From a virus (taxonomy: Duplodnaviria; Heunggongvirae; Uroviricota; Caudoviricetes), in IMG/VR virus record IMGVR_UViG_2925891887_000001: a stretch of DNA of 64,000 nt, one strand, 5' to 3'. This document shows positions 7,136 to 62,344 of this stretch, in pieces; position 1 is the first letter of the stretch; each line of letters opens with the position of its first letter. The position numbers and the translations under genes were made by a program. The notes beneath the pieces were generated by a model. That model did not search any database and had not been told where the DNA came from. It was given only the letters and a program-made list of their open reading frames with translations.

Positions 7136-7249
7136 TCGTAAGACATGCCAGACCTAATTAAACACCCCAGAAAACAAGTTGGTTAGCAGATGCAGTAAAC
7201 AAGTTGTTTTAGAGCGCATGGACGCGCTCTGTGTGTTTTAGAGGGATCT

Positions 7250-17679: not shown

Positions 17680-17686
17680 CAAGGGA

Positions 17687-22261: not shown

Positions 22262-22459
22262 CTATCGACTGCCCCGACCGGGGCAGTCTCACAAGGATGT
22301 GAGATGGAAAGACAAACGTTTAATTGGTATCCAGATTACGAATCTGAAAAGAGCGTAAAACCGAATGTAACGGTACTTAATTTTGGTGATGACTACGAGC
22401 AGCGACAGGCTCAAGGTCTTAATCGTATTAAAGAAGAATGGTCGGGTAATGACTCCAAC

Positions 22460-22963
22460 TTATTGATAGTGTTTTATGTTCAGATAATGCCCGATGACTT
22501 TGTCATGCAGCTCCACCGATTTTGAGAACGACAGCGACTTCCGTCCCAGCCGTGCCAGGTGCTGCCTCAGATTCAGGTTATGCCGCTCAATTCGCTGCGT
22601 ATATCGCTTGCTGATTACGTGCAGCTTTCCCTTCAGGCGGGATTCATACAGCGGCCAGCCATCCGTCATCCATATCACCACGTCAAAGGGTGACAGCAGG
22701 CTCATAAGACGCCCCAGCGTCGCCATAGTGCGTTCACCGAATACGTGCGCAACAACCGTCTTCCGGAGCCTGTCATACGCGTAAAACAGCCAGCGCTGGC
22801 GCGATTTAGCCCCGACATAGCCCCACTGTTCGTCCATTTCCGCGCAGACGATGACGTCACTGCCCGGCTGTATGCGCGAGGTTACCGACTGCGGCCTGAG
22901 TTTTTTAAGTGACGTAAAATCGTGTTGAGGCCAACGCCCATAATGCGGGCAGTTGCCCGGCAT
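22460..22963 (-). CDS. insB: IS1 InsB (transposase C-terminal ORF)
   Basis: 167-aa translation ...[36 protein letters not shown]... recognised as IS1 InsB. Confidence 0.95.
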
Positions 22964-23157
22964 CCAACGCCATTCATGGCCATATCAATGATTTTCTGGT
23001 GCGTACCGGGTTGAGAAGCGGTGTAAGTGAACTGCAGTTGCCATGTTTTACGGCAGTGAGAGCAGAGATAGCGCTGATGTCCGGCGGTGCTTTTGCCGTT
23101 ACGCACCACCCCGTCAGTAGCTGAACAGGAGGGACAGCTGATAGAAACAGAAGCCAC
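22882..23157 (-). CDS. insA: IS1 InsA
   Basis: 91-aa translation [43 protein letters not shown]... recognised as IS1 InsA. Confidence 0.95.
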
Positions 23158-23498
23158 TGGAGCACCTCAAAAACACCATCATACACTAAATCAGTAAGTT
23201 GGCAGCATCACCGAATGGTCGTTAACCTTTACCAGATCATACAACGAAATTAATGCAATCGATGACTTCCTGACTGAGCGAGCAGGCGTTGAGTCGTTCT
23301 ATTGGGTTAATCCAAGAGGAAAACGGATTGTAGTTGTATGTGACAGTCATACGGTCAAGCGATATCAGGGGTACTGTGTCTTAACTGCTACATTCAGACA
23401 AGTATTTGAGGCTTAAGTATCTGGATAAGTAAGTACTAATTTACTATCATTGTGGCGCTGACAGGATGTTAGCGCCTACTTATTTCAAGGATGAAACA

Positions 23499-35950: not shown

Positions 35951-36274
35951 ATGTCGAACGAGATGGCGGGCGTTACAACAGAGCAAGTTGAGCGTATTGC
36001 CGCGATCGTTGCTCGGGAGGTTGTTGGCAAATTAGGTAAAGAGCTACGTGAAGAAATTGGCCAGGAGGTCAACGATCAGCTGAAAACCTACTTTGGTGAT
36101 ATGACCCCGGCGCAACATAGTATTCAACACTCCAACCTGGACAAACTCCTTAACCGGTTAGATTCCATCTCAAGTGGGTTCTTTGGCGGCATTGTTTCTA
36201 AAATAACGTCGTTCATTATTACCGCACTGCTTTTGGGGTTAGCCGCGTATGGCGTAAAAAATGGACTGCAATAA
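35951..36274 (+). CDS. Holin-like small membrane protein (putative)
   Basis: ATG after GGAGG; one C-terminal transmembrane segment (ITSFIITALLLGLAAYGV); directly upstream of lysis genes. Confidence 0.35.
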   Translation: MSNEMAGVTTEQVERIAAIVAREVVGKLGKELREEIGQEVNDQLKTYFGDMTPAQHSIQHSNLDKLLNRLDSISSGFFGGIVSKITSFIITALLLGLAAYGVKNGLQ

Positions 36275-36287
36275 CAGGAGATCAAGG

Positions 36288-36980
36288 ATGAAGACTCCGA
36301 GAGGTATTCGTAATAATAACCCCGGTAATCTTGATAAAGGATCACCGTGGCAAGGTCTGGTTGCGAATCCAGACGAACCGCGCTTTTGCACGTTTAAAGA
36401 CCCTGTTTGGGGGATTCGTGCACTGGCGGTGACTCTAATTACCTACCACGACAAGCGTCGCGCAAAAGACGGCTCAAGTATCGATACCATTCGTGAAGTT
36501 ATTGAACGTTGGGCACCGCCGAATGAAAACAACACTGACGCCTACATTAATGAGGTGTCTAAAGCCGTTGGTGTAACCGCAGACATGATTATCGATCTGC
36601 ATGATTACGACATTCTTCGACCTTTGGTTGAGGCAATCATTCGCCATGAGAATGGGCGAGGTCCGCTAAAAACGCTGAACACCTGGTATGCGGCAGAAGT
36701 TATTGAGGAAGGTCTGCGTCGAGCTGGCGTCGTTAAGCCGGTGAAAACCGTGAAGGCTGTTCCTGTAACTAAAGAAACAGCAGGCGCAACTGTTACAGCA
36801 GGTATTGGTCTGGCGCAGCTGGCCGATGTTATGCCGCAGGTTTCCGCTGCTATGGATAAAGCACAAGGTCATATCTCTAGCGGGGATACAGTACGCATCA
36901 TCTTCGGTATTGCCACTATTGTTGTGGCTGGATTTATCGCCTGGTCGCAGGTAAGAAGACACCAGAAAGGGATGGTCTAA
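36288..36980 (+). CDS. Lysis cassette protein, endolysin candidate with C-terminal membrane anchor
   Basis: Sits between holin-like gene and Rz/Rz1; conserved-looking N-terminal motif RNNNPGNLDKGSPWQG; C-terminal TM (IIFGIATIVVAGFIAW). Enzymatic class not resolved. Confidence 0.4.
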   Translation: MKTPRGIRNNNPGNLDKGSPWQGLVANPDEPRFCTFKDPVWGIRALAVTLITYHDKRRAKDGSSIDTIREVIERWAPPNENNTDAYINEVSKAVGVTADMIIDLHDYDILRPLVEAIIRHENGRGPLKTLNTWYAAEVIEEGLRRAGVVKPVKTVKAVPVTKETAGATVTAGIGLAQLADVMPQVSAAMDKAQGHISSGDTVRIIFGIATIVVAGFIAWSQVRRHQKGMV

Positions 36981-36981
36981 T

Positions 36982-37233
36982 ATGCTAGGCAGCCTGATGA
37001 CAAAGCTAAAAGTTGCTTTGATTACGCTGGCTGCCGTTCTTTTCGTTCTGGTCGGCGCTTACACGATGGGCGGAAATGCGGCGCGACGAGCAATGGAAGA
37101 GAAGGCAAAACAGGAAGACAGAAAACGACTTCAAAGCACAGTGGATGTCAAAAATGAAACGGTTAATGAAGTGCGGCAAAAAGATGCCTCTGGTGTTCAT
37201 CGCGAGCTGTTTGATAAATGGGTGCGTGATTAA
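36982..37233 (+). CDS. Rz-like inner-membrane spanin (i-spanin)
   Basis: N-terminal TM (LKVALITLAAVLFVLVGAY) then charged coiled-coil region; 83 aa. Confidence 0.6.
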   Translation: MLGSLMTKLKVALITLAAVLFVLVGAYTMGGNAARRAMEEKAKQEDRKRLQSTVDVKNETVNEVRQKDASGVHRELFDKWVRD

Positions 37234-38025: not shown

Positions 38026-38783
38026 TTGGTCAGGCGAACAGATTAATCCCTGAAATAGAAGACTACAGCAAGGTCTTGTCTGAAATGCCGAGAGCGACGA
38101 GAATTATCGCTCTCGGTGAGTTCTATTTTATCTCCCGAGGTTTCGATCTAATTCGATTTACCGAATACGAGCTTGTTGATTCGGCCTATGAACGCTGTAT
38201 TGTTGGCGAGTGTCTTGAGTCATGTGATCCTGATTACCAAGAGCAGGAAGTTAAGCGACTCAAACGTGCTGGTTACACACCTCTTGAGATAGGAGCAGAA
38301 ATTGAATCCTACAAGTTGCATGTGGGGCAGCCAGTCCAAACAGTCTTCCGCGTGGCCTACTGCGAGTTTCCAATCAAGGATAAATCTGGAGTAAAAGTCA
38401 GCGCCAAGCAGATTAGAGGGGTTTTTACTCATGCTGATTATATGGGATTAGGCATCGCAAGTTTTGCTTACCTTTATCTCGTAGATAAGTATCAGTACTT
38501 GGTTTGCGATACGTTACAGACGGTAAAAGGCGCAACTCTTTGGGCTGTGAGTATGCGCAAACATGGACTGGTCGAAATTTACGATACGAAGAACGAAAAT
38601 TTTATAGAGGAATTGGGTGAGGATGCCTGTGGCGTAAGTGGTTTTATTCCGTGGGATATCGGTAAGTCTGACGGAGGCCAGATGCGAAGACGTGAAGAGT
38701 GGGGGACTAATAAAATCAATCTCACCCCAGGTGCTTGTACTCATATAGTGAACATTCTGACTAAACGATCTATGAATCAATAA
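38010..38783 (+). CDS. Hypothetical protein
   Basis: 257-aa ORF from track; followed by intrinsic terminator. Confidence 0.35.
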   Translation: MAPSLIGQANRLIPEIEDYSKVLSEMPRATRIIALGEFYFISRGFDLIRFTEYELVDSAYERCIVGECLESCDPDYQEQEVKRLKRAGYTPLEIGAEIESYKLHVGQPVQTVFRVAYCEFPIKDKSGVKVSAKQIRGVFTHADYMGLGIASFAYLYLVDKYQYLVCDTLQTVKGATLWAVSMRKHGLVEIYDTKNENFIEELGEDACGVSGFIPWDIGKSDGGQMRRREEWGTNKINLTPGACTHIVNILTKRSMNQ

Positions 38784-38805
38784 ACCCGCTACGGCGGGTT
38801 TTTTG
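38784..38805 (+). terminator. Rho-independent terminator
   Basis: acccgc-tacg-gcgggt stem followed by TTTTT. Confidence 0.7.
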
Positions 38806-38932
38806 TTATTAAGCCCCCCCTATGTACCTATCATTAAACCTTTACACCGCAGCCGTAGGCATTTAGGCTATATCACATATAAGAAAACAAGTTGTTTCAG
38901 ACGATAATTATATACGCAAAGGGAACTCTCCA

Positions 38933-39601
38933 ATGACCAAGATCTTTGTGGTTGGCGGCACAAAGGGCGGGCCTGGCAAATCCACCGTTGCCCAGCAAAT
39001 TGCCGTTTGCCTGAAAGTCAAAAAGAAGAAGAAGGTTTATATTACCGATATAGATATTCAGCGCACGACAACGAGCTGGTGTGAAGACCGTCGACAGAAC
39101 GAAGACCTTGAGCTGATTCCTTTCGCATACGTTCAGGATGACATCATTAAGCACCTAAAATCGCTTCAGGGTAGAGCTGAGTTTGTAGTGGTAGATGCTG
39201 GTGGCTTCGACTCCGAAATTCAGCGACAAGCGATGCTGATGGCTGACGTTATCATTATCCCGCTGCGTCCTAAGCGTCGTGATTTGAAATCTTTACGTGA
39301 CATCGATCCTATTATCGACAATGTTCGCAATGTAAACGATAAAGTGAAGGTCCGCGCGGTCATGAACCAGTGCCCGGCTTTGCCATCACAAGTGTCTCGC
39401 ATTCTGGCGGCTAAAGAGATTGTTGAGACGTTTGGCATCGAGTCTGCGCCAGTCAATCTATATAACCGCAACGTCTATGATGATGCGGAAGAGTCTGGTC
39501 GTTCTATCTTTGAAATGACCGGTAGCGAGCGCGACAAAAAGGCGGAAGCCGAGTTTGAAGAATTTGTAGATTATCTGTTGAGTCTGGAGGAAGAAGAATA
39601 A
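38933..39601 (+). CDS. ParA/ParF-like partition ATPase (type Ib)
   Basis: Deviant Walker A GGTKGGPGKST, small size (222 aa), acidic C-terminus. Confidence 0.8.
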   Translation: MTKIFVVGGTKGGPGKSTVAQQIAVCLKVKKKKKVYITDIDIQRTTTSWCEDRRQNEDLELIPFAYVQDDIIKHLKSLQGRAEFVVVDAGGFDSEIQRQAMLMADVIIIPLRPKRRDLKSLRDIDPIIDNVRNVNDKVKVRAVMNQCPALPSQVSRILAAKEIVETFGIESAPVNLYNRNVYDDAEESGRSIFEMTGSERDKKAEAEFEEFVDYLLSLEEEE

Positions 39602-39960
39602 TGTCCATGAAAATGGGTGACCTAGCAAAGCGCAAAGAGCCTGATGCACCGGCTAAGAACACAACTCCTTTGCGCCAACCAGTCAGACCACAGGGACGCC
39701 CGACTCGTGGCAAAGAGAAAATTAAAAGCCGCACAATGTCACTGGAGGACGAATACTTCGAACTGCTGGAGATGATGAAGTTCATCCCTCGCTTCGAGAA
39801 GTTCACTCGTTCTGACGTGATTCGTGCTGCTATTTTCCATCTTGCGGAGAAGACACCGCAGGAAATCGAGGACATCGTGAAACTTAACGAGGCGATCACA
39901 GCTGCCGATGTCACGATGCGTACCGATGAAATTAAACGCGAGTTGATGAAGAAAGGGTGA
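39601..39960 (+). CDS. Partition centromere-binding protein (ParG/RHH-like), putative
   Basis: Small basic protein coupled to ParA (start overlaps stop); unstructured basic N-terminus, C-terminal helix-rich region. Confidence 0.5.
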   Translation: MSMKMGDLAKRKEPDAPAKNTTPLRQPVRPQGRPTRGKEKIKSRTMSLEDEYFELLEMMKFIPRFEKFTRSDVIRAAIFHLAEKTPQEIEDIVKLNEAITAADVTMRTDEIKRELMKKG

Positions 39961-40011
39961 TTATATTGGGCGTTTGTTACGCCCAATATATGAGTTGAAG
40001 GATAGACACCA

Positions 40012-41718
40012 ATGGAATCGATAGAAGTATTTTTAAAAAATTTTTTGGACTCAGATCATCGGGTTGCTGTCATAAAAGGAAATTGGGGAGTAGGTAAAAC
40101 GCATTATTGGAATAGCTTTTATACTAAACATTCTAAAAAATTAGATTTTAATGCATATTCATATGTTTCTTTGTTTGGAATAAATTCTATTGGAGACATT
40201 AAAAAAGCTCTTTATCATTGTGCCACACCAATTAATGAAAAGAAATATAAAGAACTGATTTTATCTGAAACGGATCGAACTATGATTCGTTATAGAAATG
40301 GGTTTTGGGGATGGTTGAAATACAACTCCTTGTCAAAATTTATAATACATTTTGGAAAGAACGATTTTTTTGGGTTCAAAACTGATAATCTGCTGTCATC
40401 TCTTGAGTATAAATTTGTTAATAATTATTTGGTTTGCATTGATGATATTGAACGAAAAGGTAGTGCGCTAGAAATTAAAGAGATTATGGGGGTAATTGAT
40501 GAGTTGGCAAGAAGAAAAAATTGCAAGGTTGTTCTAATATTAAATGAAGATAACTTACATGAAGAAACTGCACAACAACAGTTTTTAGAGTATAGAGAAA
40601 AAATAATTGATGTGGAAATAAAATACGATCCCACGCCTGAGAAAAACTTAAGAAAAGTTTTTTATGAGACTGACCCTGATTTTCTTTTGTTAAAAAACCT
40701 AGCAAATGATTTAAACATCAAAAACATTAGAATATTAAATAAAATAAAATCATCTCTAGTTATATTTAGAGATGTGCTAAAGTTAGCAGAGGATAAGGTT
40801 AGAGAAAGTTTTATTAATAGATTGGTCTTATTTTCAGTGGTTTACTATTTTGGTGTTCCTAGCGTTGATTATGCTTCATTTAAGGAGTCAATCAAAAATA
40901 TACATGCATTCGACTATATGTTAGATGATAAAGATGAAAAGGAAGAAGTTAACTCTGTATATTCATTTGTTAATAGCCTTGATGTTATTTATGAACGAGC
41001 AGAAAGTGCTTTCGATGATGATATAGATTTTTACCTTAAGAACGGTTATGTTTCTTCTGAAAGCAATATTCTAAATATAATAAAAGAAAAAAATGAACAA
41101 TATAGAGATAATAGGGTTTTATGTGAGGTTTATAAAATTTGGGATGTTTTTAGAAACTCTTTTAAAGATAATGAATCAGAGTTTATTTTTCAAATTGAGC
41201 GCGTAATTAACGATAGTCTGTTGCGTATACCAATTGGACAGTTCGTAGGTTTAATAAATGTCCTAATTAAATTGGATAGAGATTGTAATAATATTATAGA
41301 GGCATATGCAGATGCTTTTGTTAATAAAGACAATGCGTATGCTACATTTAATTCTTTGCGAGTAGAGATCTTCGGAAATGAAGAATTAGGTTTCAGAATT
41401 GAAAAAAAATTGAAAGATAGAAATCCAGATGACTATAACTTAGATAAAATTATAAAAAAAATAGCTGGTGGAAGATTTAACCATAGTGATGTGAATATTC
41501 TTAACAGTTTTTCTAAAGATGATTACGTAAACTGGATATTATCCTGTGATCAGGATGCTTTGAATTTAGTAGAAGAGACTATGCTCAAGTTCAAGGGTAT
41601 GCAACACCCGACAGACGAACAGAAGAGCATCACTGATAAAGCAATAGAAGCTTTGGAGGAAGTTGCTTCAAAATCAACACTTAATAAGCTGCGTGTTAAT
41701 AAAATACTCAATCATTAA
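40012..41718 (+). CDS. KAP-family P-loop NTPase-like protein, low-GC cargo gene
   Basis: Walker A GNWGVGKT and Walker B LVCIDDIER about 120 aa later (KAP-like spacing); strongly AT-rich versus flanks; bracketed by hairpin 39962-39990 and palindrome 41728-41785. Confidence 0.55.
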   Translation: MESIEVFLKNFLDSDHRVAVIKGNWGVGKTHYWNSFYTKHSKKLDFNAYSYVSLFGINSIGDIKKALYHCATPINEKKYKELILSETDRTMIRYRNGFWGWLKYNSLSKFIIHFGKNDFFGFKTDNLLSSLEYKFVNNYLVCIDDIERKGSALEIKEIMGVIDELARRKNCKVVLILNEDNLHEETAQQQFLEYREKIIDVEIKYDPTPEKNLRKVFYETDPDFLLLKNLANDLNIKNIRILNKIKSSLVIFRDVLKLAEDKVRESFINRLVLFSVVYYFGVPSVDYASFKESIKNIHAFDYMLDDKDEKEEVNSVYSFVNSLDVIYERAESAFDDDIDFYLKNGYVSSESNILNIIKEKNEQYRDNRVLCEVYKIWDVFRNSFKDNESEFIFQIERVINDSLLRIPIGQFVGLINVLIKLDRDCNNIIEAYADAFVNKDNAYATFNSLRVEIFGNEELGFRIEKKLKDRNPDDYNLDKIIKKIAGGRFNHSDVNILNSFSKDDYVNWILSCDQDALNLVEETMLKFKGMQHPTDEQKSITDKAIEALEEVASKSTLNKLRVNKILNH

Positions 41719-42640: not shown

Positions 42641-42683
42641 CTAATACTAGAAAACAATTTGTTTAAAAAACAAAGGAAAGCAC

Positions 42684-44024
42684 ATGACCGAACTTTGCCA
42701 TACAGGACGCGGGCTGTCCGAAGAGTTTGATGAAGATTTCCAGAACAGACTGACGGCATATTTTTGTCGTGATCACGAGTTTCTTACTCGTGCGGGAGAT
42801 CTGGTTGTGCCTAGCCAATTTGCCAATGCGGCCAATGCCATATTGGTTAATATGGTTTCGGGCTATTACCGTATGTACAAGAGCGCGCCCTCTTCATCTG
42901 CAATTCTGGATATGCTTAAGCGTGCGAAACGCGATAAGACTATCCGTGAGGAACTATTCGCCGATGTTGTTGTTGCGTTTAAGCGCATCCTTGCAGAAAA
43001 ATTGTCCGATACCTCGTACATGGTTGACCAGGTATCAACCTTCGCAAAAAGCGTAGCGTTTGATGATGCTCTGATTAAGGCTGCTGAACTGAAAGAGAAG
43101 GGCGACTTTCAGGGGGCGATGGCAATCATGGCCAAGGTTCAGCAGATTGGATCGAACGAAGCGACCGGAATCTATGACTACTACACCTCCGCAAGTGAGC
43201 GATTGAAAGCGCGTGAATATGAGGCTTCAGAGGAGTATGTACCAAACAGTATTACAACTGGACTCCCTCTTCTCGATAGGTTGCTGTACCAAAAAGGCTG
43301 GGCAAAGCGCGAAATGGTGCTCTTCATGGGGTTCGCTAAATCCGGTAAATCGACCGCAATGGGTGAGTTTTCCATAAACGCAACGCTTGCTGGCTACAAT
43401 GTTCTGTATCTCTCGCTGGAGGTTCACACCAACATTTTGTCCGACCGTTTTGATGCAAGATTGTCGGAGACGGAAATGTCCAAGTTGGTGGAACGGCGCG
43501 ATGAAGTTCATCGTAAGTTGGCAGAGTTGGGAGCCTCTAAGGGGATTGGTAGTTTGTGGGTTGTTGAGCGTCCGTCAGGAAGTATGTCACCGGCAGATCT
43601 GGACCGTATGCTTAACAGCATGAAAGCCAACGGCATGGTGCCTGACATGGTTGTTGTCGACTACGCAGATTTGATGCGTGCCAGTTATGACCTTCGTGAT
43701 GATCGCGCCAACATTCGTAGTATCTACACCGATTTACGTGCTCTTTATGACAAGCATAACGTTGCTGGGATCACGGCATCGCAGACAAACCGTGAAGGTG
43801 GCGCGTCAGAAGTTGCCACAATGATGCACGCTGCCGACAACATCGAAAAAGTACGTATTGCTGACCTGGTAATAACGATCAACAAAACCGAAGAAGAAGA
43901 AGCGAAAGGAGAGGCTCGTCTCTACTTTGCCGGTTCACGTAACCAGCAGGGAGGGATCAGCATTCGCGTTAAACAAAACCTCGAACAAATGCGCTTCATT
44001 GAGCGAATCTTAGACGTTACCTAA
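42684..44024 (+). CDS. DnaB-like replicative DNA helicase
   Basis: Walker A GFAKSGKST, RecA-like C-terminal domain with DYADLM and arginine finger region; 446 aa. Confidence 0.8.
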   Translation: MTELCHTGRGLSEEFDEDFQNRLTAYFCRDHEFLTRAGDLVVPSQFANAANAILVNMVSGYYRMYKSAPSSSAILDMLKRAKRDKTIREELFADVVVAFKRILAEKLSDTSYMVDQVSTFAKSVAFDDALIKAAELKEKGDFQGAMAIMAKVQQIGSNEATGIYDYYTSASERLKAREYEASEEYVPNSITTGLPLLDRLLYQKGWAKREMVLFMGFAKSGKSTAMGEFSINATLAGYNVLYLSLEVHTNILSDRFDARLSETEMSKLVERRDEVHRKLAELGASKGIGSLWVVERPSGSMSPADLDRMLNSMKANGMVPDMVVVDYADLMRASYDLRDDRANIRSIYTDLRALYDKHNVAGITASQTNREGGASEVATMMHAADNIEKVRIADLVITINKTEEEEAKGEARLYFAGSRNQQGGISIRVKQNLEQMRFIERILDVT

Positions 44025-44105
44025 AAAATAAGCGTGGAGAACACCTCCACGCTTGATTCATTGGTGAAACAACTTTTCTTTTGCCAAACCACAAAAGAAA
44101 AACAC

Positions 44106-45287
44106 ATGAGCCTTTATGTTATATCAACATTTAGGTTGGTCACAATATTGCCTGTTAAAAGTGGAATTATCGTGAGCGAGCTGAAAGAGCTAATTGCCGA
44201 ATTAGATTTTGAACAATGGTTGGATACTGAAGGTATCGTTTATCGACGTGGAGGCGTGAGTGCTCGCGGTCGTGAAGTGAATATCAAAGAGTGTCCGGTA
44301 TGCGGCAGCTCCAACTGGAAGGTATATTTCAATCTGACCAGTGGCGTCGGCAAATGCTTCGCTGGTGATCATCCCGAAGAGATTCAGTTCAATAAGCTGG
44401 TCTTCCTCAAGCACTACAGCGGTAAATCACGACGACAGTTCGAGGAATATGTGCAGAACGCTCTTCTTTCCCAGGGGTGGACACCAAAGAAAGAAGAGCT
44501 AGTGCTTGCAAGCACAGTCGAGTTAGAGGGGCCAGTTGCACTCCCTCGTCATTACGAGCTTCCTATAGATGGCCGTCTTCCAGACTATCTGGTTGAACGA
44601 AACATATCACCTGAAATGGCAAAGTATTTTGACCTACGATACTGCGTCGAAGGCAAGCACGCTTATGTAGATCCGTATACAGATCAGGTAAAAGGGCAGA
44701 TATTCGATATGCGAATACTGATACCGGTTTACGATCTGGATGGGGTAATGAAGACATTTCAGGGACGAGACATTACCGGTACAGCAGAACGCCGCTACCT
44801 CTTTCCTATGCAGCTTCCAGCTTCAGGTAAATTTCTCTACAACGGCCATAATGCAGTCGGCAAACAGACTGTAGTTGTCTGTGAGGGTTCGTTCGATGTT
44901 ATGGGGGTCAAACGAGCTATTTTCGACGAAGAAACATTACGTGATTACGTGGAGCCAATAGGAACGTTCGGGATGCATCTATCTGGCAACACCACTCAGG
45001 ATGCAGAAGATCAGTTGGGCGCGTTCCTGACGCTCAAGGCGCGTGGATTACGTAATGTGATCATGATGTGGGATAGTGAAAAGCAAGCTATACGAAACAC
45101 GATGGCCGCAGCCAGGCGACTGACCAGTATTGGTCTTAATGTCAAAGTTGCGTGTTTGGGCGAGGAAGGACTCGACCCCGGCGATGCGACACCGGGGCAG
45201 ATTATCAAAGCCTACTATTGCGCAAAACCTTATTCACGACAGCTTGAACTTTTAAGCAAGGTAAAAGGTATAGCAGCATTAGTTTGA
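44106..45287 (+). CDS. DNA primase (zinc finger + TOPRIM)
   Basis: Zn-binding-like CPVCGSS...KCFAGDH; TOPRIM motifs VVVCEGSFDVMGV and MWDSE; track ORF starts 44034 but includes a hairpin, so start is probably 44106 or 44173. Confidence 0.7.
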   Translation: MSLYVISTFRLVTILPVKSGIIVSELKELIAELDFEQWLDTEGIVYRRGGVSARGREVNIKECPVCGSSNWKVYFNLTSGVGKCFAGDHPEEIQFNKLVFLKHYSGKSRRQFEEYVQNALLSQGWTPKKEELVLASTVELEGPVALPRHYELPIDGRLPDYLVERNISPEMAKYFDLRYCVEGKHAYVDPYTDQVKGQIFDMRILIPVYDLDGVMKTFQGRDITGTAERRYLFPMQLPASGKFLYNGHNAVGKQTVVVCEGSFDVMGVKRAIFDEETLRDYVEPIGTFGMHLSGNTTQDAEDQLGAFLTLKARGLRNVIMMWDSEKQAIRNTMAAARRLTSIGLNVKVACLGEEGLDPGDATPGQIIKAYYCAKPYSRQLELLSKVKGIAALV

Positions 45288-48148: not shown

Positions 48149-48619
48149 GTGAAAGCTGATTTGTCAAAAGTCCCTTCTATTTCAGGAAATAACGGTTATT
48201 CACTTCGTTGTGAGGAAGTAAAGATAAACGGTGAGTCGGCATATTGCAGCTACTCCGTTTGCCAGCACACCATTCTTGCCTTCAAAGAAAACCGTCTTCC
48301 TCGAACGTCTTTCCAGTCGTGCGCAACCGCTATTAAAGCAGGCAAATGCAAGGCGTTAAAAATGATGGTTGAAGAGATTCGTAAAGGAGAATCTCTGTAT
48401 TTCGAAGATATGACCGCACTCATTAAGGAGGTTGAAGAACGGAATAAACAAGCCAGAACTATAAAACGAAAACGTGACAGTGTAACGATTAATAGCATGG
48501 TTAAGAAGAGCGCCACATCACAAACAGCGATCACTGACGTGTATGCGGCGTTGATTGAAGAAACAACAAAAGAAACACATGAGCAAATCGATCAACATAT
48601 GGAGGCAAAACAACAATGA
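48149..48619 (+). CDS. Hypothetical Cys-rich protein
   Basis: 156 aa with N-terminal Cys cluster; coupled to ligase gene. Confidence 0.35.
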   Translation: MKADLSKVPSISGNNGYSLRCEEVKINGESAYCSYSVCQHTILAFKENRLPRTSFQSCATAIKAGKCKALKMMVEEIRKGESLYFEDMTALIKEVEERNKQARTIKRKRDSVTINSMVKKSATSQTAITDVYAALIEETTKETHEQIDQHMEAKQQ

Positions 48620-49938
48620 AAAAGTTGATCGCACTTAAGCATAAGCTGGACGAAATGAAAGCTATAGGAACCAATGCAAAAAAAGAGGCATTGGCCAACA
48701 TGGATGACTTTGAACAAAGCATGGTTTCATTGATGCTCAACCCTTTCATCCGTTTTGGGGTAAAGAAATACAAAGTGGCAGAGCCGCTTAGTGAGTCCAT
48801 CCCAAGTGACGTAAAAGCCATTGATGTACTGAATAAGCTGGCCTCTCGCGAGCTAACGGGGAACGCAGCAATAGCAGCTGTTGAGTCTATCGTGGCGTCA
48901 ATGTGCGCCGATGGGCAGGACGTGTTCCGTCGTTTCCTCTTAAAAGACCCGAAAGCAGGTGTTGGGATTAGCCTATGCAACAAGGTTTTTGAAAATCCCA
49001 TTCCGAAATTCGAGGTGCAGCTGGCGTCACCGTATAAAGAAAAAGGCGACAAATACCCCTTCAAGCCAAATCCTAAAGCAAAATGGCCGATGATTGGCAG
49101 TCTTAAGCTCGATGGTTTGCGAGTAATTTGCGAGGTTATTGTTGACGAGGAAGAGGTTAACTTCCTTTCTCGTACTGGTAATCCAATCACGTCTCTCGAT
49201 CACCTAAAGCCAGCAATGCTCGAATTAGGCAAACTTTCAGGCCACAAACACATCTTCTTCGATGGTGAAGGAACAGCCGGTTCATTTAACCAGTCCGTAT
49301 CTGCATTGCGCAAAAAGAACGTGCAGGCAATTGGCGCTATTTATCATGTTTTCGACTTCTTCCTACCGGAATGGCGAGCACAGGCTAAATCCAAAGAGTA
49401 TGCAAAGACAGGTATGAAGCTGAAAGAGCGCCTGGCTATTCTCGTGGCGTTGTTCAAAAACGATCGCAGTGAAGGCTACACACAAGACATTCACCTGCAT
49501 CCGTTCTATATCATCCATAGCCACGAAGACTTCATCGAACGCTTCATGAAACGCCTGGACGATAATGAAGAAGGGGAGATGGGCAAAGATCCGAACTCTG
49601 TTTACGAGTTTAAACGTACCCGCAGCTGGTGGAAGTTAAAAGACGAAGATTCAGAAGATGGTGAAATTATCGATTTTGAGCCGGGCGATCCGGACTCTGG
49701 TTTTGCCAACACGCTTGGAAAAATTGTTATTCGTCTTGAAAACGGCGTCATCGTTCGTGCGAGCGGTATTAAGCATAAATATCTGGACGAGATCTGGAAC
49801 AACAAAGAGAAGTACCGTGGTCGTATTGTTGAGGTTCATTGTCACGAGAAAACACCGGATGGCAGCTTACGCCACCCCCGACTGAAATGGCCGCGTTGCT
49901 TACGCGATACAGAAGATCGAATCGGAGATAAAGAATGA
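48616..49938 (+). CDS. ATP-dependent DNA ligase
   Basis: Motif I KLDGLR (adenylation lysine), motif III-like FFDGEG, motif V-like WWKLK; 440 aa. Confidence 0.75.
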   Translation: MKKLIALKHKLDEMKAIGTNAKKEALANMDDFEQSMVSLMLNPFIRFGVKKYKVAEPLSESIPSDVKAIDVLNKLASRELTGNAAIAAVESIVASMCADGQDVFRRFLLKDPKAGVGISLCNKVFENPIPKFEVQLASPYKEKGDKYPFKPNPKAKWPMIGSLKLDGLRVICEVIVDEEEVNFLSRTGNPITSLDHLKPAMLELGKLSGHKHIFFDGEGTAGSFNQSVSALRKKNVQAIGAIYHVFDFFLPEWRAQAKSKEYAKTGMKLKERLAILVALFKNDRSEGYTQDIHLHPFYIIHSHEDFIERFMKRLDDNEEGEMGKDPNSVYEFKRTRSWWKLKDEDSEDGEIIDFEPGDPDSGFANTLGKIVIRLENGVIVRASGIKHKYLDEIWNNKEKYRGRIVEVHCHEKTPDGSLRHPRLKWPRCLRDTEDRIGDKE

Positions 49939-51527: not shown

Positions 51528-51602
51528 GATGGTGTAGCTCAGCGGTAGAGCAGTTGGCTGTTAACCAACTGGTCGGTGGTTCGAATCCACCCACCATCGC
51601 CA
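51528..51602 (+). tRNA. tRNA-Asn (anticodon GTT)
   Basis: Manual fold: acceptor gatggtg/caccatc, D-arm tagctcagcggtagagca, anticodon loop ctGTTaa, T-loop ggttcgaatcc, encoded CCA. Confidence 0.8.
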
Positions 51603-51607
51603 ATTTA

Positions 51608-51694
51608 GGGGAGTTAGTCCGTAGAGGTAGCGGTGTAGACTGTAAATCTACTGTCATGGCGACTCGGGTGGTTCGACTCCATCACTCCCCACCA
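51608..51694 (+). tRNA. tRNA-Tyr (anticodon GTA), long variable arm
   Basis: Acceptor ggggagt/actcccc, anticodon loop ctGTAaa, long variable arm, T-loop ttcgact, encoded CCA; D-arm pairing weak. Confidence 0.7.
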
Positions 51695-51698
51695 AATT

Positions 51699-51774
51699 GC
51701 CGGTTTAGCTCAGTTGGTAGAGCAGTCGCTTTGTAAGCGAATGGCCAGCGGTTCAAGTCCGTTAACCGGCACCA
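51699..51774 (+). tRNA. tRNA-Thr (anticodon TGT), tentative isotype
   Basis: Acceptor gccggtt/aaccggc, D-arm tagctcagttggtagagca, anticodon loop ttTGTaa, T-loop ttcaagt, encoded CCA. Confidence 0.7.
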
Positions 51775-52094
51775 ACACAACAGGTAAGAGCATTGGGCGA
51801 ATCGGCGATACTGACCCACAAGGCCGTAAATCGATAGAGTCAGACCAGTGCTCTTACCGTTGTGAGGAAGTGCAGCTCTTTGAAGCAACCAGAAGATAAG
51901 CATCTGGCTTCACAACACAACGATAATATCATTACGGTTAATCGTCGTTCATGTGCACAATGACTGGTCGAAAGGTAGTGATCTTACCGTTGTGATGAAT
52001 GCACAGGCTGATGTGCCGCAACTACAGTAGTGCGCGCTTTGCGGGGCTTGCTACAACCCTGTGTCGGAGTTCAGCACCGACCATCACAATAGCT

Positions 52095-52181
52095 GGAGAG
52101 TAGGGAGCATGGTGCTCAAGCGGTCTTGAAAACCGTCCCATTGTGCAAACGATGATGGTTCGATTCCATTACTCTCCGCCA
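52095..52181 (+). tRNA. tRNA-Ser (anticodon TGA), atypical D-arm
   Basis: Acceptor ggagagt/actctcc, anticodon loop ctTGAaa, long variable arm, T-loop ttcgatt, CCA; D-arm lacks canonical GG. Confidence 0.55.
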
Positions 52182-54266: not shown

Positions 54267-55370
54267 ATGAAAAATAGCTTTGACAGAGCACGCGCTGCGG
54301 AGAACACCTCAAAAGAGGCGATTGAGTATCTCGAAAGAGCATCTCAAATGCAGGCCGTTATGATCTCGCAGGTCAGCAATGACATGAGATTCTCGGACGC
54401 ATTCATGTTATTCACTCGCTTATCTCTGCTGATAACAAGACGTCGGCCAGAGATCGCTGTTCATTGTATTTTGATACATGTTTTGCCGCACATTGCCGAT
54501 GTAAAAGTAAGTGACATTAATAGGTTCATGGTGAACCAACTGGTCAACCCACTAATACTGGATGGCAAAATTGTTATGGGCCGCCGCGTTTTCTCTCTGA
54601 TGAAGCAGTTCCTTAGCTGGTGCGCCTTCCAGGGGATGATAGACGTGTCACCGTTAAACGATATGTCACTAAACAAAGTTGCCGGTGGCGCAAAGCCCAC
54701 ACCTCGCGAGCGGAAGCTGACCGACGCAGAGGTATGGGTGTTCTGGAATATATGGGACTACTTCAATGTGTGCGCTGGTACAAAATGGGCGGCCAGGCTG
54801 TGTCTTGTATCCGCAAGACGACCTGACGAAGTACTGCGGGCTAAAAAAAGTGAGTTCAATCTTAAGCGTGGGGTTTGGAATCAAGGCAAGAGGAACAAAT
54901 CTGCCCGTGAGCATTCGCTGCCTTTAAGCACATTAATGCGCACATGTATTGAAGAGTTGTTCGAATACGGTAAAGGCAGCCAGTGGCTCGTGCCTTCGAA
55001 TAAAAAAATCGGGAAAGACCTTCCTATGTCTAAAGTGGCAATAGCCCAGGCATTACGTCGTATCCTGGAACGACCAGAACTGATGGAGCTTGAGCCATTT
55101 ACACCCCGAGACTTGCGCCGTACTGCGCGTAGTTACTTCCCAGCATTAGGCATAAGCCAGGAGGTCTCACGCAAAATCATGAACCACAGTCTTGAGGGGA
55201 TAGATCGAGTCTACGACCGGCACGATTATATGGACGAGATGCGAGACGCCTTAGAAAGTTTCTCGACGTACATCGCATCAATCGTAGAGCAACCGGATTT
55301 AGACGAAATTGACCACAAATTCAAGGGAGATCGTCTATCAACAGAGCTTATTCGTGTAAATTTTTCATAG
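54267..55370 (+). CDS. Tyrosine recombinase / integrase family protein
   Basis: C-terminal catalytic region with conserved Arg (LVSARRPDEV), box II-like PRDLRRTARSY, then NHSLEGIDRVYDRHDY with candidate catalytic Tyr; 367 aa. Confidence 0.65.
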   Translation: MKNSFDRARAAENTSKEAIEYLERASQMQAVMISQVSNDMRFSDAFMLFTRLSLLITRRRPEIAVHCILIHVLPHIADVKVSDINRFMVNQLVNPLILDGKIVMGRRVFSLMKQFLSWCAFQGMIDVSPLNDMSLNKVAGGAKPTPRERKLTDAEVWVFWNIWDYFNVCAGTKWAARLCLVSARRPDEVLRAKKSEFNLKRGVWNQGKRNKSAREHSLPLSTLMRTCIEELFEYGKGSQWLVPSNKKIGKDLPMSKVAIAQALRRILERPELMELEPFTPRDLRRTARSYFPALGISQEVSRKIMNHSLEGIDRVYDRHDYMDEMRDALESFSTYIASIVEQPDLDEIDHKFKGDRLSTELIRVNFS

Positions 55371-55751
55371 AGACTTTATGGCCTCAACAACCTTTTGTGA
55401 TGCGCCTTTCTCTTTACCGAATCGCTCGTTATATGCAGCAAGAACCTGTTTTTCGTCCTCGTTAAGAGGAGCGGTGCCTTCTTTGTATAAAAATGCTGCG
55501 AGTTCAGGTTGGCGTTCTTCCAGCACCATCATCATAAGACGACTTGGCTCAATACCCAGCGCCAGCGCCAACGGACGAACCTTATCGATAGGCAAAGGAA
55601 TTTTGCCACTTTTAATTAAAGAAAGGTTGTTGGCATTTTTATAACCAATAAGTCTGGCTATTTGGGCCTGACTCATAGGTGAGGATTCAATCAGCCCTGC
55701 GATAAAAGCGGCATAGCGACTTTCTATAAATTCAATCTTGTTGTCAGACAT
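55365..55751 (-). CDS. XRE-family HTH transcriptional regulator (repressor-like)
   Basis: HTH segment SQAQIARLIGYKNANNLSLIKSG; 128 aa; divergent from 56002 ORF, with palindrome GGTAAGTGCTTACC about 32 bp upstream of its start. Confidence 0.65.
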   Translation of the reverse strand: MSDNKIEFIESRYAAFIAGLIESSPMSQAQIARLIGYKNANNLSLIKSGKIPLPIDKVRPLALALGIEPSRLMMMVLEERQPELAAFLYKEGTAPLNEDEKQVLAAYNERFGKEKGASQKVVEAIKSL

Positions 55752-56001
55752 TGTTACAACCTTTGCGCGTTCAATTCTCTCTGGTAAGTGCTTACCGATA
55801 TTACATCAAAGGTTAGGGTTGTAAAGCTATTATCATTTTTTCGATAGGCACTTAAAAGACCGGTTAAAGGCCATTGCACGGAGAAAAATTAGCCCAAAAC
55901 AGGTAAGAAAATTAACTTGCATATGATATGAATGTATTCAGTATTGATATAAATTTTAGTAGTATTCCTTACCATAGTATAAGTTAGAATGGATTGATTG
56001 A

Positions 56002-56214: not shown

Positions 56215-56312
56215 CCCCTCTTCTCCCTGCGCGAATGGCTTAGTTCCCTGTTCGCGCAGTGCTACATTAAACACACTAGTAAATAATTTGTTTTCATAAC
56301 AAAGGATTAGCC

Positions 56313-59754: not shown

Positions 59755-59958
59755 GTGCGTAAAGGATGTTTCGGCTCTCTTATCGCTGCTTCTGAAACTG
59801 GTAAGGCTTGTCTGGTGTGTCCAGACAAGCCCGATTGTCACCAATCAGCAAAAGAAGTTGCGATTTCGATGCATGGGAAGTTCGTAGGCTTCCCCAATGA
59901 CAAAATCAAAAAAACCAGAAAGGTAAAAACACATGAAGGCACTGATGGTTCGAACTGA
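59755..59958 (+). CDS. Hypothetical small Cys-rich protein
   Basis: 67-aa ORF (GTG start) between CobS-like and polymerase genes; weak support. Confidence 0.25.
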   Translation: MRKGCFGSLIAASETGKACLVCPDKPDCHQSAKEVAISMHGKFVGFPNDKIKKTRKVKTHEGTDGSN

Positions 59959-62296: not shown

Positions 62297-62344
62297 GAAT
62301 TAATTTATAAGATAAGAAAACAATTTGTTTAGTGAGTCTTAGAA

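What the first reader, a model, noticed from the sequence alone, without database searches (positions are those of the whole stretch)
38933..39960. Plasmid-type ParA/ParG-like partition cassette inside a tailed-phage genome
A small type Ib ParA-like ATPase (deviant Walker A GGTKGGPGKST) with a coupled small basic partner sits between lysis and replication genes, preceded by an AACAA..TTGTT dyad and followed by a strong hairpin. Together with the own replisome genes, recombinase and repressor-like regulator, this suggests the element is maintained as an extrachromosomal phage-plasmid; naming a specific family (SSU5/pHCM2-like) is from memory and unverified.
Basis: inference. Interest (0 to 1): 0.5.

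Follow-up and report, generated by a model that had tools for sequence, protein, structure and literature searches.

The report
Partition cassette of SSU5-like phage-plasmid
This is the plasmid-segregation gene pair (a small ParA ATPase plus a small DNA-binding partner) of a well-known family of E. coli phages that live as about 110-kb circular plasmids, so the finding is correct but largely ordinary; the open points are where its centromere lies and which protein binds a 13-bp palindrome it shares with many other promoters of the element.

Summary
There is a 222-aa ParA-type ATPase (38933-39601, deviant Walker A GGTKGGPGKST) and a 119-aa basic partner (39601-39960) whose start overlaps the ParA stop. 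A dyad AAACAAgTTGTTT (38885-38897) lies upstream and a 12-bp-stem hairpin (39962-39990) lies downstream.

The SSU5/pHCM2 guess is right. The window is 99.997% identical over 36 kb to the circular 109-kb E. coli plasmid p22AR0322A and 86% identical to phage SSU5 across the cassette. The cassette occurs in 261 of 5,426 complete E. coli genomes, always on plasmids.

ParA is closest to ParF of TP228 among solved structures. The partner belongs to a tiny lineage-restricted family with no Pfam domain. It has a conserved N-terminal peptide, a disordered basic linker and a probable ribbon-helix-helix core, but no detectable homology to ParG. Its annotation as a RelE/ParE toxin in phage Cyrano is unsupported.

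The dyad is not par-specific. It recurs at five other promoter-proximal sites in the window and at 19 sites in a complete relative. It persists in Yersinia pMT1, which lacks the cassette.

No repeat-array centromere was found. The hairpin is not conserved. This copy carries an IS1 in a tail gene, so it is probably a defective phage that depends on plasmid maintenance.

The parts
38782..38806 (+). Intrinsic terminator of the preceding gene (stem AAACCCGC/GCGGGTTT followed by a T-run). It insulates the par promoter from upstream transcription.
   Evidence: also present in SSU5 and PhiR41_1
38825..38932 (+). Conserved par leader. It is the left end of the block shared by all close relatives. A 62-bp core is almost invariant between E. 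coli, Salmonella and Klebsiella elements whose coding DNA is only about 79% identical. The centromere or operator is presumed to lie here but is not proven.
   Evidence: the probability of 2 or fewer differences in 62 bp at 21% divergence is 7e-5
38825..38835 (+). Motif TACCTATCATT. It is one copy of a second motif that recurs in intergenic DNA of the element. Its function is unknown.
38841..38869 (+). Inferred sigma-70 promoter: -35 TTTACA (38841-38846), 17-bp spacer, -10 TAGGCT (38864-38869). The spacer and -10 hold two TAGGC pentamers 8 bp apart (38856-38868).
   Evidence: The hexamers and the 17-bp spacing are conserved in relatives down to 47-64% leader identity. The TAGGC pair is unique in the window. 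The promoter scan did not call this site, so it is an inference.
38885..38897 (+). 13-bp dyad AAACAAgTTGTTT, about 15 nt downstream of the -10, in an operator position.
38933..39601 (+). parA: a 222-aa type Ib-style deviant Walker A ATPase. The Walker A motif is encoded at nt 38954-38986.
39601..39960 (+). Partner gene, 119 aa. The protein has a conserved N-terminal peptide MGDLAKR, a disordered basic linker (RPQGRPTRGK), a putative ribbon-helix-helix core (residues about 41-82: IKSRTMSLEDE...TRSDVIRAAIFHLAE) and two further helices. It is the presumed centromere-binding adaptor.
39962..39990 (+). Hairpin with a perfect 12-bp stem and no U-tract. It sits in the variable slot and is shared by only a subset of relatives. 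It may be a 3' end or mRNA-stability element, or a junction of a cargo insertion.
7172..7209 (+). Two further copies of the dyad (7172-7184 and 7197-7209), 41-78 nt upstream of the small-terminase-like gene that starts at 7250.
42652..42664 (+). Dyad copy AAACAAtTTGTTT, 19 nt upstream of the DnaB-like helicase gene.
56281..56293 (+). Dyad copy AAATAAtTTGTTT, 19 nt upstream of the CobT-like gene. It is downstream of the divergent 128-aa HTH regulator gene (55365-55751, minus strand) and a 70-aa ORF.
62318..62330 (+). Dyad copy AAACAAtTTGTTT, 14 nt upstream of the HNH endonuclease gene.

Best explanation
The region is the partition module of an SSU5-type phage-plasmid. It consists of a 108-bp leader, parA and a small partner gene.

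Proposed mechanism, in order:
1. The operon is transcribed from a sigma-70 promoter (TTTACA-17-TAGGCT). This step is inferred.
2. The two genes are translationally coupled through a TAATG overlap. The overlap is read directly from the sequence; coupling is inferred.
3. ParA is a small type Ib ATPase with no N-terminal DNA-binding domain. By analogy with ParF and delta it dimerises on ATP, binds the nucleoid non-specifically, and is released when its ATPase is stimulated. This step is inferred.
4. The 119-aa partner acts as the adaptor. A dimeric ribbon-helix-helix-like core binds specific DNA on the plasmid, and its conserved N-terminal peptide (MGDLAKR, on a disordered basic tail) contacts and stimulates ParA. 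The roughly five plasmid copies are then spread over the nucleoid and inherited by both daughter cells. This step is inferred.

The centromere most probably lies in the invariant leader, but it is not a classical repeat array and I could not pin it down.

The 13-bp dyad in the leader sits just downstream of the promoter. The same dyad occupies the same position at many other promoters of the element. The par operon therefore appears wired into a genome-wide regulon. My preferred reading (about 55%) is that a phage regulator conserved across the lineage binds the dyad, with the 128-aa HTH protein as the obvious candidate. The alternative is that the partner itself binds it.

In this particular copy an IS1 disrupts a tail gene, so vertical inheritance through this cassette is probably the element's only route of persistence.
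For: Identity and context:
- ORFs and motifs are as described.
- Among solved structures ParA is closest to ParF of TP228 (4dzz, E 1e-10, aligned over residues 9-199).
- ParA scores 115.7 bits on NCBIfam ParA_partition and matches PHROG 164.
- The same gene pair sits at the same position, between the lysis genes and the DnaB helicase gene, in every SSU5-like relative examined. These come from E. coli, Salmonella, Klebsiella, Enterobacter, Xenorhabdus and Photobacterium.

The module behaves as a unit:
- Similarity between relatives starts at about 38825 and stops at the partner's stop codon, while the neighbouring genes differ.

Extrachromosomal state:
- The window is 99.997% identical to a circular 109-kb plasmid.
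- All 262 places found in complete E. coli genomes are on plasmids.
- Phage Cyrano has 5.5 copies per cell, and its par operon is expressed in the lysogen (ParA 50, partner 89, helicase 21 normalised units).

Partner architecture:
- The N-terminal peptide and the core IKSRTxSxEDE...RSDVxRAA are conserved.
- AlphaFold predicts a disordered N-terminus and confident helices at 48-59 and 70-82.
- Weak ribbon-helix-helix hits fall at the expected residues in several family members and in the window protein: aCcr1 E 2e-4, RHH_1 E 0.005, RHH_1 and RHH_3, and the NikR N-terminus in register.

Leader constraint.

The dyad as a regulon element:
- 17 matches against 3.3 expected in the window.
- 19 sites in a complete relative, all in 5' leaders.
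- 10 perfect copies in 50 kb against 0 in shuffles.
- pMT1 lacks the cassette but keeps six dyads and a homologue of the 128-aa regulator.
Against: - No experiment on this par locus was found in the literature searched.
- ParA scores below the NCBIfam equivalog cut-off (115.7 against 180). Its best Pfam hit is MipZ, and RefSeq names some copies 'division plane positioning ATPase MipZ'.
- The partner has no significant match in Pfam, the PDB or fold libraries and no detectable similarity to ParG or omega. Its fold and its DNA binding are therefore inferred.
- No iterated centromere-like repeats lie next to the operon.
- If the dyad is bound by a lysogeny repressor, it is odd that par is transcribed at about the level of the repressor gene while the helicase and CobT-like genes stay low.
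Confidence: 0.85

Rival explanations
1. The 119-aa partner itself binds the AAACAA-N-TTGTTT dyads. The leader dyad would then be its operator and centromere, and the other copies would be dispersed centromere-like and regulatory sites. The partner would act as a genome-wide regulator in the manner of KorB of RK2, omega of pSM19035 or SopB of N15.
For: - A distant homologous cassette on a Pseudomonas syringae plasmid contig has no phage genes nearby. It carries its own 8-2-8 dyad at the same position upstream of parA and a second copy directly after the partner's stop codon.
- AAACAA half-sites are enriched in the par leaders of all SSU5-like relatives, in varying number and orientation, as with omega heptads.
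- A Photobacterium relative whose partner has a changed putative DNA-reading strand (KGRMVSME) has no such dyad anywhere in 20 kb.
- The promoter region of the 128-aa regulator gene holds other palindromes (GGTAAGtgCTTACC) and not this dyad.
- The par operon is expressed in lysogens at a moderate, autoregulation-like level.
Against: - pMT1 has no homologue of ParA or the partner by tblastn or profile search. It nevertheless keeps six dyads, unchanged relative to a par-positive relative whose flanks are 87-98% identical.
- One relative (L016) has the same strand residues but no dyad in its par leader.
- Nineteen promoter-proximal operators at early genes look more like the regulon of a lysogeny repressor, as with C1 of P1 (established knowledge).
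Confidence: 0.3
2. The ATPase is not a partition protein. It would be a MipZ-like or other positioning ATPase that, for example, interferes with host division or places phage components, as some RefSeq names suggest.
For: The best Pfam hit is MipZ (52 bits, E 7e-14), and MipZ structures match at E about 1e-9. Some records name the protein 'division plane positioning ATPase MipZ'.
Against: - The MipZ match covers only the N-terminal 130 residues that all ParA/MinD ATPases share.
- ParF and the NCBIfam ParA_partition model align over the whole protein.
- The gene is always paired with the small partner and sits on low-copy plasmid prophages that carry no other ParA-type partition operon in the stretches examined. 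The ParB_N-domain genes next to the terminase were not pursued.
- pMT1, which lacks the cassette, carries a separate large ParA/ParB pair instead.
Confidence: 0.04
3. The small ORF is a RelE/ParE-type toxin, as annotated for CYRAN_29 in phage Cyrano. The pair would then be an addiction module rather than a partition module.
For: Only the GenBank annotation of Cyrano.
Against: - No RelE/ParE or other toxin family was hit in Pfam, NCBIfam or PADLOC.
- The predicted protein is all-helical with a disordered N-terminus, unlike the RelE fold.
- The upstream gene is a Walker ATPase, not an antitoxin.
- All other records call the ORF hypothetical.
Confidence: 0.02
4. The cassette is an inactive relic. 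Stable inheritance would come from copy number, toxin-antitoxin genes and dimer resolution alone.
For: No centromere array was found, and copy number is about 5.5. Relatives carry TA systems next to the cassette, and there is a tyrosine recombinase at 54267-55370.
Against: - Both ORFs are intact and kept at the same position across genera down to about 30% partner identity.
- The leader is under stronger constraint than the coding DNA.
- The operon is transcribed.
Confidence: 0.05

Closest known systems
ParF-ParG-parH of Salmonella plasmid TP228 (type Ib partition)
   Same: Both have a small deviant Walker A ATPase without an N-terminal DNA-binding domain, and ParF is the closest solved structure (E 1e-10). 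In both, a small partner gene follows the ATPase gene directly, and the partner has a flexible N-terminal tail ahead of a putative ribbon-helix-helix core. In both, the regulatory DNA lies upstream of the ATPase gene.
   Different: The partner shows no detectable sequence similarity to ParG. It is longer (119 against 76 aa) and has two extra C-terminal helices. There is no array of tetramer repeats like parH, only a single 13-bp dyad and two TAGGC pentamers. The host replicon is a tailed phage-plasmid.
delta-omega of pSM19035 and KorB/IncC of RK2 (partition adaptors that are also global regulators)
   Same: If the partner binds the dyads, it would combine the roles of partition adaptor and multi-operon repressor, as omega (a ribbon-helix-helix protein that reads heptads in variable orientation) and KorB (13-bp palindromic operators at 12 sites) do. 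These properties of omega and KorB are stated from established knowledge.
   Different: Binding of the partner to the dyads has not been shown, and pMT1 argues against it. There is no sequence similarity to omega.
Partition loci of the phage-plasmids P1 (ParA-ParB-parS) and N15 (SopA-SopB with dispersed centromeres)
   Same: The biological role is the same: segregation of a low-copy plasmid prophage. N15 gives a precedent for centromere sites scattered among phage promoters, and P1 for a repressor with many dispersed operators (established knowledge).
   Different: P1 and N15 use large type Ia ParA proteins with helix-turn-helix ParB partners. The system here is of the small type Ib kind with an unrelated partner.
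ParA-like partition protein of Salmonella phage SSU5 (SSU5_033 and SSU5_034) and pHCM2-type plasmids
   Same: It is the same cassette at the same position. It is 86% identical in DNA to SSU5 and 93% identical in partner protein to the S. Typhi plasmid copy.
   Different: Only the neighbouring cargo differs: a KAP NTPase here, against three other genes in SSU5. This copy also carries an IS1 in a tail gene.

Membership tests
Type Ib ParA (ParF/delta-like small partition ATPases) | Deviant Walker A motif KGGxxGK[ST] with the signature lysine | tested here: met
   Residues 11-18 read KGGPGKST, taken directly from the sequence.
Type Ib ParA (ParF/delta-like small partition ATPases) | Small size (about 200-230 aa) with no N-terminal helix-turn-helix domain | tested here: met
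   The protein is 222 aa. The Walker A motif starts at residue 8, and ParF aligns from its own residue 8.
Type Ib ParA (ParF/delta-like small partition ATPases) | Full-length sequence similarity to characterised members | tested here: met
   ParF 4dzz matches at E 1.2e-10 over residues 9-199. PHROG 164 matches at E 4e-51.
NCBIfam NF041546 ParA_partition (equivalog) | Score at or above the curated cut-off of 180 bits | tested here: not met
   The score is 115.7 bits. The protein is related to this family but is not an equivalog member.
Type Ib ParA (ParF/delta-like small partition ATPases) | ATP-dependent dimerisation and nucleoid binding, with ATPase activity stimulated by the partner | not testable with these tools
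   This needs biochemistry.
ParG family (TP228) | Sequence homology to ParG | tested here: not met
   hhalign of the family profile against ParG (sequence verified as 1P94) gave probability 0.2%. There was no ParG or RHH hit in the PDB searches.
Ribbon-helix-helix superfamily (CopG/Arc/MetJ/NikR-type) | A strand-helix-helix core recognised by family profiles or by fold comparison | tested here: inconclusive
Type Ib centromere-binding adaptor | Flexible N-terminal tail with a conserved basic residue that stimulates ParA | tested here: inconclusive
   Residues 1-46 have low pLDDT. The MGDLAK(R/K) peptide is nearly invariant in the family, and a similar peptide occurs in partners of distant homologues. 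Its function is untested.
Complete partition locus (any type) | A recognisable cis-acting centromere (repeat array or defined palindromes) next to the operon | tested here: inconclusive
   No iterated array was found. The candidates are the single dyad, which is shared genome-wide, and the TAGGC-N3-TAGGC pair. The leader is strongly constrained.
SSU5-type phage-plasmids (SSU5/pHCM2 group) | Nucleotide similarity and gene order shared with SSU5 and related roughly 110-kb plasmids | tested here: met
SSU5-type phage-plasmids (SSU5/pHCM2 group) | Existence as a circular extrachromosomal replicon | tested here: met
   The window is 99.997% identical to the circular plasmid p22AR0322A. Of 262 places in complete E. 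coli genomes, none is chromosomal.
SSU5-type phage-plasmids (SSU5/pHCM2 group) | Ability to produce infectious virions | not testable with these tools
   An IS1 splits the minor tail protein gene at 22445-23212, so this copy is probably defective.
RelE/ParE toxins | Match to RelE/ParE family profiles | tested here: not met
   No hit was found in Pfam, NCBIfam or PADLOC.
MipZ | Full-length match to the MipZ profile | tested here: not met
   The score (52 bits) exceeds the Pfam cut-off, but the match covers only profile positions 2-150 of 262, which is the shared P-loop half. A ParB/FtsZ-dependent role in placing the division site, which also defines MipZ, cannot be tested with these tools.

The most novel reading that the evidence does not exclude
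The small partner protein, not a classical repressor, is what binds the 13-bp dyads found at the par promoter and at some 19 early and replication promoters of SSU5-type phage-plasmids. One ribbon-helix-helix-like protein would then serve as partition adaptor, as marker of dispersed centromeres, and as genome-wide silencer of phage genes during plasmid carriage. That would couple segregation directly to the control of lysogeny.
Probability: 0.3. Interest if true: 0.65.

Novelty: new member of a known kind. Interest (0 to 1): 0.3.

Why it matters
SSU5-type phage-plasmids are common in clinical Enterobacteriaceae. The cassette is present in 4.8% of complete E. coli genomes, and relatives include pHCM2 of S. 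Typhi. Some of these elements carry resistance genes. Their ParA is used as a hallmark gene, yet the partition system has not been characterised, and the partner gene is annotated as hypothetical or, wrongly, as a toxin.

Three results are usable here:
- The partner can be assigned as the probable adaptor.
- The module can be delimited as a 108-bp leader plus two genes.
- The par promoter shares an operator with many other promoters of the element.

Together these give concrete, testable handles on how these elements are inherited and on how their phage genes are kept quiet. For the scan itself, the result is that the finding is correct and mostly already explained.

Tried and rejected
- **Remote homology of the partner.** phmmer and profile searches of the PDB gave only noise. 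Pfam scans of the whole protein and of its core gave nothing. hhalign against ParG and omega gave nothing. A profile search of 1.84 billion representative proteins found only 18 relatives, and every one whose locus I fetched lay in an SSU5-like context.
- **Centromere search.** No repeat array lies in or around the cassette. A blastn-short search of the leader against the window found only the dyad copies and two short motifs. The TAGGC-N3-TAGGC pair is unique in the window but is not conserved in all relatives.
- **pMT1 as a natural knock-out.** It lacks the cassette and keeps the dyads. This is only moderately informative, because the flanks are 87-98% identical to par-positive relatives, so little time may have passed since the loss.
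- **Covariation test in a Photobacterium relative.** The dyad is absent from both the par and the replication leaders, so the test cannot separate the two candidate binding proteins.
- **Hairpin as a terminator.** Rejected as a canonical terminator: it has no T-run and it is not conserved.
- **RelE/ParE toxin annotation.** Rejected.
Full report
**1. Observation**

ORF listing and direct reading confirm the two genes.
- The first ORF, 38933-39601, encodes 222 aa. Residues 8-18 are GGTKGGPGKST, a deviant Walker A motif.
- The second ORF, 39601-39960, encodes 119 aa. Its ATG shares one base with the parA stop codon (TAATG), and a GGAGG lies 10 nt upstream.

The upstream dyad is AAACAA-G-TTGTTT at 38885-38897. 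The downstream hairpin at 39962-39990 has a perfect 12-bp stem, folds at -19 kcal/mol and scores z = -4.1 against shuffles. It has no T-run and was not scored as a terminator. A canonical terminator at 38782-38806 ends the preceding gene.

**2. What the replicon is**

The cassette matches known phage-plasmids at the nucleotide level.
- It is 98% identical to Escherichia phages CMS-2020a, PhiR41_1 and Cyrano, 86% to Salmonella phage SSU5 and about 80% to Klebsiella phage-plasmids.
- It matches 720 plasmid records, 687 of them typed non-mobilizable.

The whole window is collinear with E. coli plasmids of about 110 kb at 98-99% identity. Window 21325-57460 differs by one base in 36,136 from the circular 109,442-bp plasmid p22AR0322A. 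Among 5,426 complete E. coli genomes, 261 carry the cassette, at 262 places, all on plasmids and none on a chromosome.

Gene content is that of a siphovirus with its own replisome:
- large terminase (7882-9138);
- tape measure protein (17666-22261);
- tail fibres;
- endolysin (36261-36980) and Rz spanin (36982-37233);
- DnaB-like helicase (42684-44024) and primase (44034-45287);
- DNA ligase (48616-49938);
- integrase (54267-55370);
- a 128-aa HTH regulator (55365-55751, minus strand);
- a CobT-like protein (56313-58421);
- a DnaE-like polymerase (59933-62296).

Published work on phage Cyrano, which is 97.5% identical across the cassette, reports 5.5 plasmid copies per cell and virion production (PMC9928086). 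Its RNA-seq table shows ParA at 50 and the partner at 89 normalised units in the lysogen, against 21 for the helicase and 96 for the putative repressor.

**3. The ATPase**

The Pfam hits are MipZ, AAA_31, CbiA and ParA. NCBIfam ParA_partition scores 115.7 bits, below its cut-off of 180. PHROG 164 'ParA-like partition protein' matches at E 4e-51.

The closest solved structure is ParF of TP228 (4dzz, E 1e-10), aligned over residues 9-199. MipZ matches only the N-terminal P-loop half. The protein has no N-terminal DNA-binding extension, so it is a type Ib-style ParA.

Homologues fall into three tiers:
- SSU5-like elements of Enterobacteriaceae, at 60-100% identity;
- Xenorhabdus, Providencia and Photorhabdus contigs of about 100-110 kb, at 50-55%;
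- Pseudomonas plasmid contigs and an Agarivorans chromosomal locus, at about 43%.

**4. The partner**

The family is very small. It has 25 clusters among 5.8 billion proteins and 18 representatives among 1.84 billion. It is PHROG 5111, of unknown function. Every member whose locus I fetched lies directly downstream of the ParA gene in an SSU5-like context.

Alignments show three conserved features:
- a nearly invariant N-terminal peptide MGDLAK(R/K);
- a variable linker followed by a basic stretch (RPQGRPTRGK);
- a conserved core, I(K/R)SRTxSxEDE(Y/F)...(T/S)RSDVxRAA.

AlphaFold predicts disorder up to about residue 46, then helices at 48-59, 70-82, 86-97 and 101-117. The second model has pLDDT 73.5 overall and about 90 in the helical part.

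The core has the pattern of a ribbon-helix-helix protein, but support is weak throughout:
- NCBIfam aCcr1 (a ribbon-helix-helix family, stated from my own knowledge) at E 2e-4 over residues 54-79;
- Pfam RHH_1 at E 0.005 in 2 of 12 family members;
- RHH_1 and RHH_3 in the partners of the Xenorhabdus and Agarivorans ParA homologues;
- 8.5 bits to the NikR N-terminus, in the right register.

There is no detectable similarity to ParG. Fold searches returned nothing, and a dimer could not be modelled.

I therefore treat the partner as a type Ib-style adaptor by architecture, not as a member of the ParG family. The 'RelE/ParE putative toxin' label in the Cyrano record has no support.

**5. The module and its leader**

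Similarity between relatives begins at about 38825 and ends at the partner's stop codon. The genes on both sides vary:
- Cyrano has a KacAT toxin-antitoxin pair upstream.
- This window has a KAP NTPase downstream.
- SSU5 has a DUF2971 gene and two others downstream.
- One relative (L016) has an Abi_2 gene downstream.
- A Xenorhabdus element (L015) has PAAR, TsiV and VgrG-type genes downstream.

Within the 108-bp leader, a 62-bp core is almost invariant between E. coli, Salmonella and Klebsiella copies whose coding DNA is about 79% identical. The probability of this by chance is 7e-5.

Comparison with relatives down to 47-64% leader identity keeps TTTACA, a 17-bp spacer and TAGGCT. I read these as the -35 and -10 elements of the par promoter. 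The simple promoter scan did not call this site, so it is an inference. The dyad starts 15 nt after the -10, which is an operator position.

**6. The dyad is genome-wide**

With up to two mismatches the dyad has 17 matches in the window, against 3.3 expected and a maximum of 8 in shuffles.

The palindromic copies all lie 14-78 nt upstream of gene starts:
- 7172 and 7197, before the small-terminase-like gene;
- 38885, before parA;
- 42652, before the helicase gene;
- 56281, before the CobT-like gene;
- 62318, before the HNH endonuclease gene.

The par and helicase copies are conserved in every SSU5-like relative from Enterobacteriaceae that I examined except L016, which lacks the par copy and whose contig does not reach the helicase gene.

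In a complete par-positive relative, Enterobacter plasmid pTUECL19001-1 (120 kb), there are 19 copies with at most one mismatch, 13 of them perfect. In the copies where a start codon is visible in the printed flanks, it lies 15-25 nt away, and several copies are preceded by a GATAAT-like -10 element about 13 nt upstream. Ten perfect copies occur in 50 kb, against none in shuffles. This is a regulon operator, not a feature specific to par.

**7. Who binds the dyad**

Evidence that a phage regulator other than the partner binds it:
- Yersinia pMT1 has no homologue of ParA or the partner, by tblastn and by profile search. It uses a separate large ParA/ParB pair.
- pMT1 nevertheless keeps six dyads, identical to those of the Enterobacter plasmid at the twelve specified arm positions, with flanks 87-98% identical.
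- pMT1 also keeps a 64%-identical homologue of the 128-aa HTH regulator.
- One relative (L016) with the same partner strand residues has no dyad in its par leader.

Evidence that the partner binds it:
- A homologous cassette on a Pseudomonas syringae plasmid contig is flanked by two copies of its own 8-2-8 dyad. One copy sits at the equivalent upstream position and the other directly after the partner gene.
- AAACAA half-sites are enriched, in varied arrangements, in all SSU5-like par leaders.
- The promoter region of the regulator gene carries different palindromes.
- A Photobacterium relative with an altered partner strand lacks the dyad everywhere in 20 kb.
- par is expressed in lysogens while other dyad-bearing genes stay low.

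I put the phage-regulator reading at about 55%, the partner reading at about 30% and something else at the remainder.

**8. Centromere**

No iterated array exists in or beside the cassette. The candidates are the dyad and the pair TAGGC-N3-TAGGC (38856-38868), which overlaps the -10 and is unique in the window. The centromere remains unidentified. This is the main gap in calling the cassette a complete partition locus.

**9. Comparison with known systems, and novelty**

In how it works, the closest systems are the type Ib loci, ParF-ParG-parH and delta-omega. In biological role, it parallels the P1 and N15 partition loci.

It is the same cassette that is annotated as 'ParA-like partition protein' in SSU5, so the existence of the cassette is already known. 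Its partner family, centromere and regulation have not been characterised in any paper I could find. I classify it as a new, uncharacterised member of a known kind.

**10. State of this copy**

An IS1A at about 22445-23212, with the 9-bp target duplication GAATGGTCG, splits the 111-aa minor tail protein gene. RefSeq also marks a tail fibre gene as truncated. This element is probably unable to make infectious particles and so depends on replication and partition for persistence.

Noticed in passing
window 22445-23212 (gene halves at 22304-22444 and 23213-23413): An IS1A insertion with the 9-bp target duplication GAATGGTCG splits the 111-aa minor tail protein gene. RefSeq marks both halves as pseudogenes in the near-identical plasmid p22AR0322A. 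This copy is probably a defective phage locked in the plasmid state.
   Followed up: yes
window 40012-41718: A 568-aa KAP-family P-loop NTPase gene sits in the variable slot just after the par cassette. Its GC content is 27-32% against 45-49% for the backbone. It matches the PADLOC defence candidate PDC-S49 (E 2e-21) and PHROG 4740. It looks like acquired defence cargo.
   Followed up: partly
window 7172, 7197, 38885, 42652, 56281, 62318; L024-L026 (19 sites); pMT1 L006/L007 (6 sites): The 13-bp palindrome AAACAA-N-TTGTTT, usually preceded by AGA, lies in the 5' leaders of many genes across SSU5-type elements. It looks like the operator of an undescribed genome-wide regulon. The protein that binds it is unknown.
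   Followed up: partly
window 35865(-), 38825(+), 47234(-), 48111(-), about 23440(+); also pMT1 and L008: A second recurrent intergenic motif, TAC(C/T)TATCATT, is often preceded by GATAAG-like sequence. One copy marks the left edge of the conserved par leader. It could be a promoter or operator element.
   Followed up: partly
window 3634-5635: Two adjacent ParB_N-domain ORFs (232 and 233 aa) and an ABC-type ATPase ORF lie upstream of the terminase genes and are conserved in pMT1 and the Enterobacter relative. They are not next to parA. They may be packaging-associated proteins rather than partition ParB proteins (my guess, not tested).
   Followed up: no
window 59933-63079: A DnaE-like polymerase ORF of 787 aa matches only about the first two thirds of full-length phage polymerase profiles. 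It is followed directly by an HNH/NUMOD endonuclease gene that has its own dyad. The polymerase gene may be split by a homing endonuclease.
   Followed up: no
L002 4776-5135 (Escherichia phage Cyrano CYRAN_29): The orthologue of the 119-aa partner is annotated 'RelE/ParE putative toxin' in GenBank. No family search supports this.
   Followed up: yes
L013 2954-2971 and 4004-4021 (Pseudomonas syringae plasmid contig): A distant homologue of the cassette (ParA 44% identical) is flanked by two copies of an 8-2-8 palindrome, (A/T)TAACTTA-NN-TAAGTTAT. One copy is upstream of parA and the other lies just after the partner gene. These are probably the binding sites of its partner.
   Followed up: partly
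L014 5001-5979 (Agarivorans chromosome, 4.7 Mb): A homologous ParA (43% identical) and a 107-aa partner with a weak RHH_3 hit sit in a housekeeping neighbourhood that includes priA, argS, a PilZ-domain gene, hslVU and zapB. This suggests a chromosomal positioning role unrelated to plasmids.
   Followed up: no
both sides of 38825-39960, compared with L001, L002, L003, L004, L012, L015, L016: The par module is bracketed by two cargo hotspots. Their content changes between close relatives: a KacAT toxin-antitoxin pair, a KAP NTPase, Abi_2, DUF2971, and PAAR/TsiV/VgrG-like genes.
   Followed up: partly
window about 51528-52181: A cluster of four tRNA genes (Asn, Tyr, Thr, Ser) is annotated in the near-identical plasmid p22AR0322A. 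I did not run ARAGORN on the window.
   Followed up: no
window 55752-56001: The region between the 128-aa HTH regulator gene and a 70-aa ORF holds a perfect palindrome GGTAAGtgCTTACC (55784-55797) and a tandem 21-bp repeat (55924-55965). These are candidate operators of the lysogeny switch and are distinct from the AAACAA dyad.
   Followed up: no
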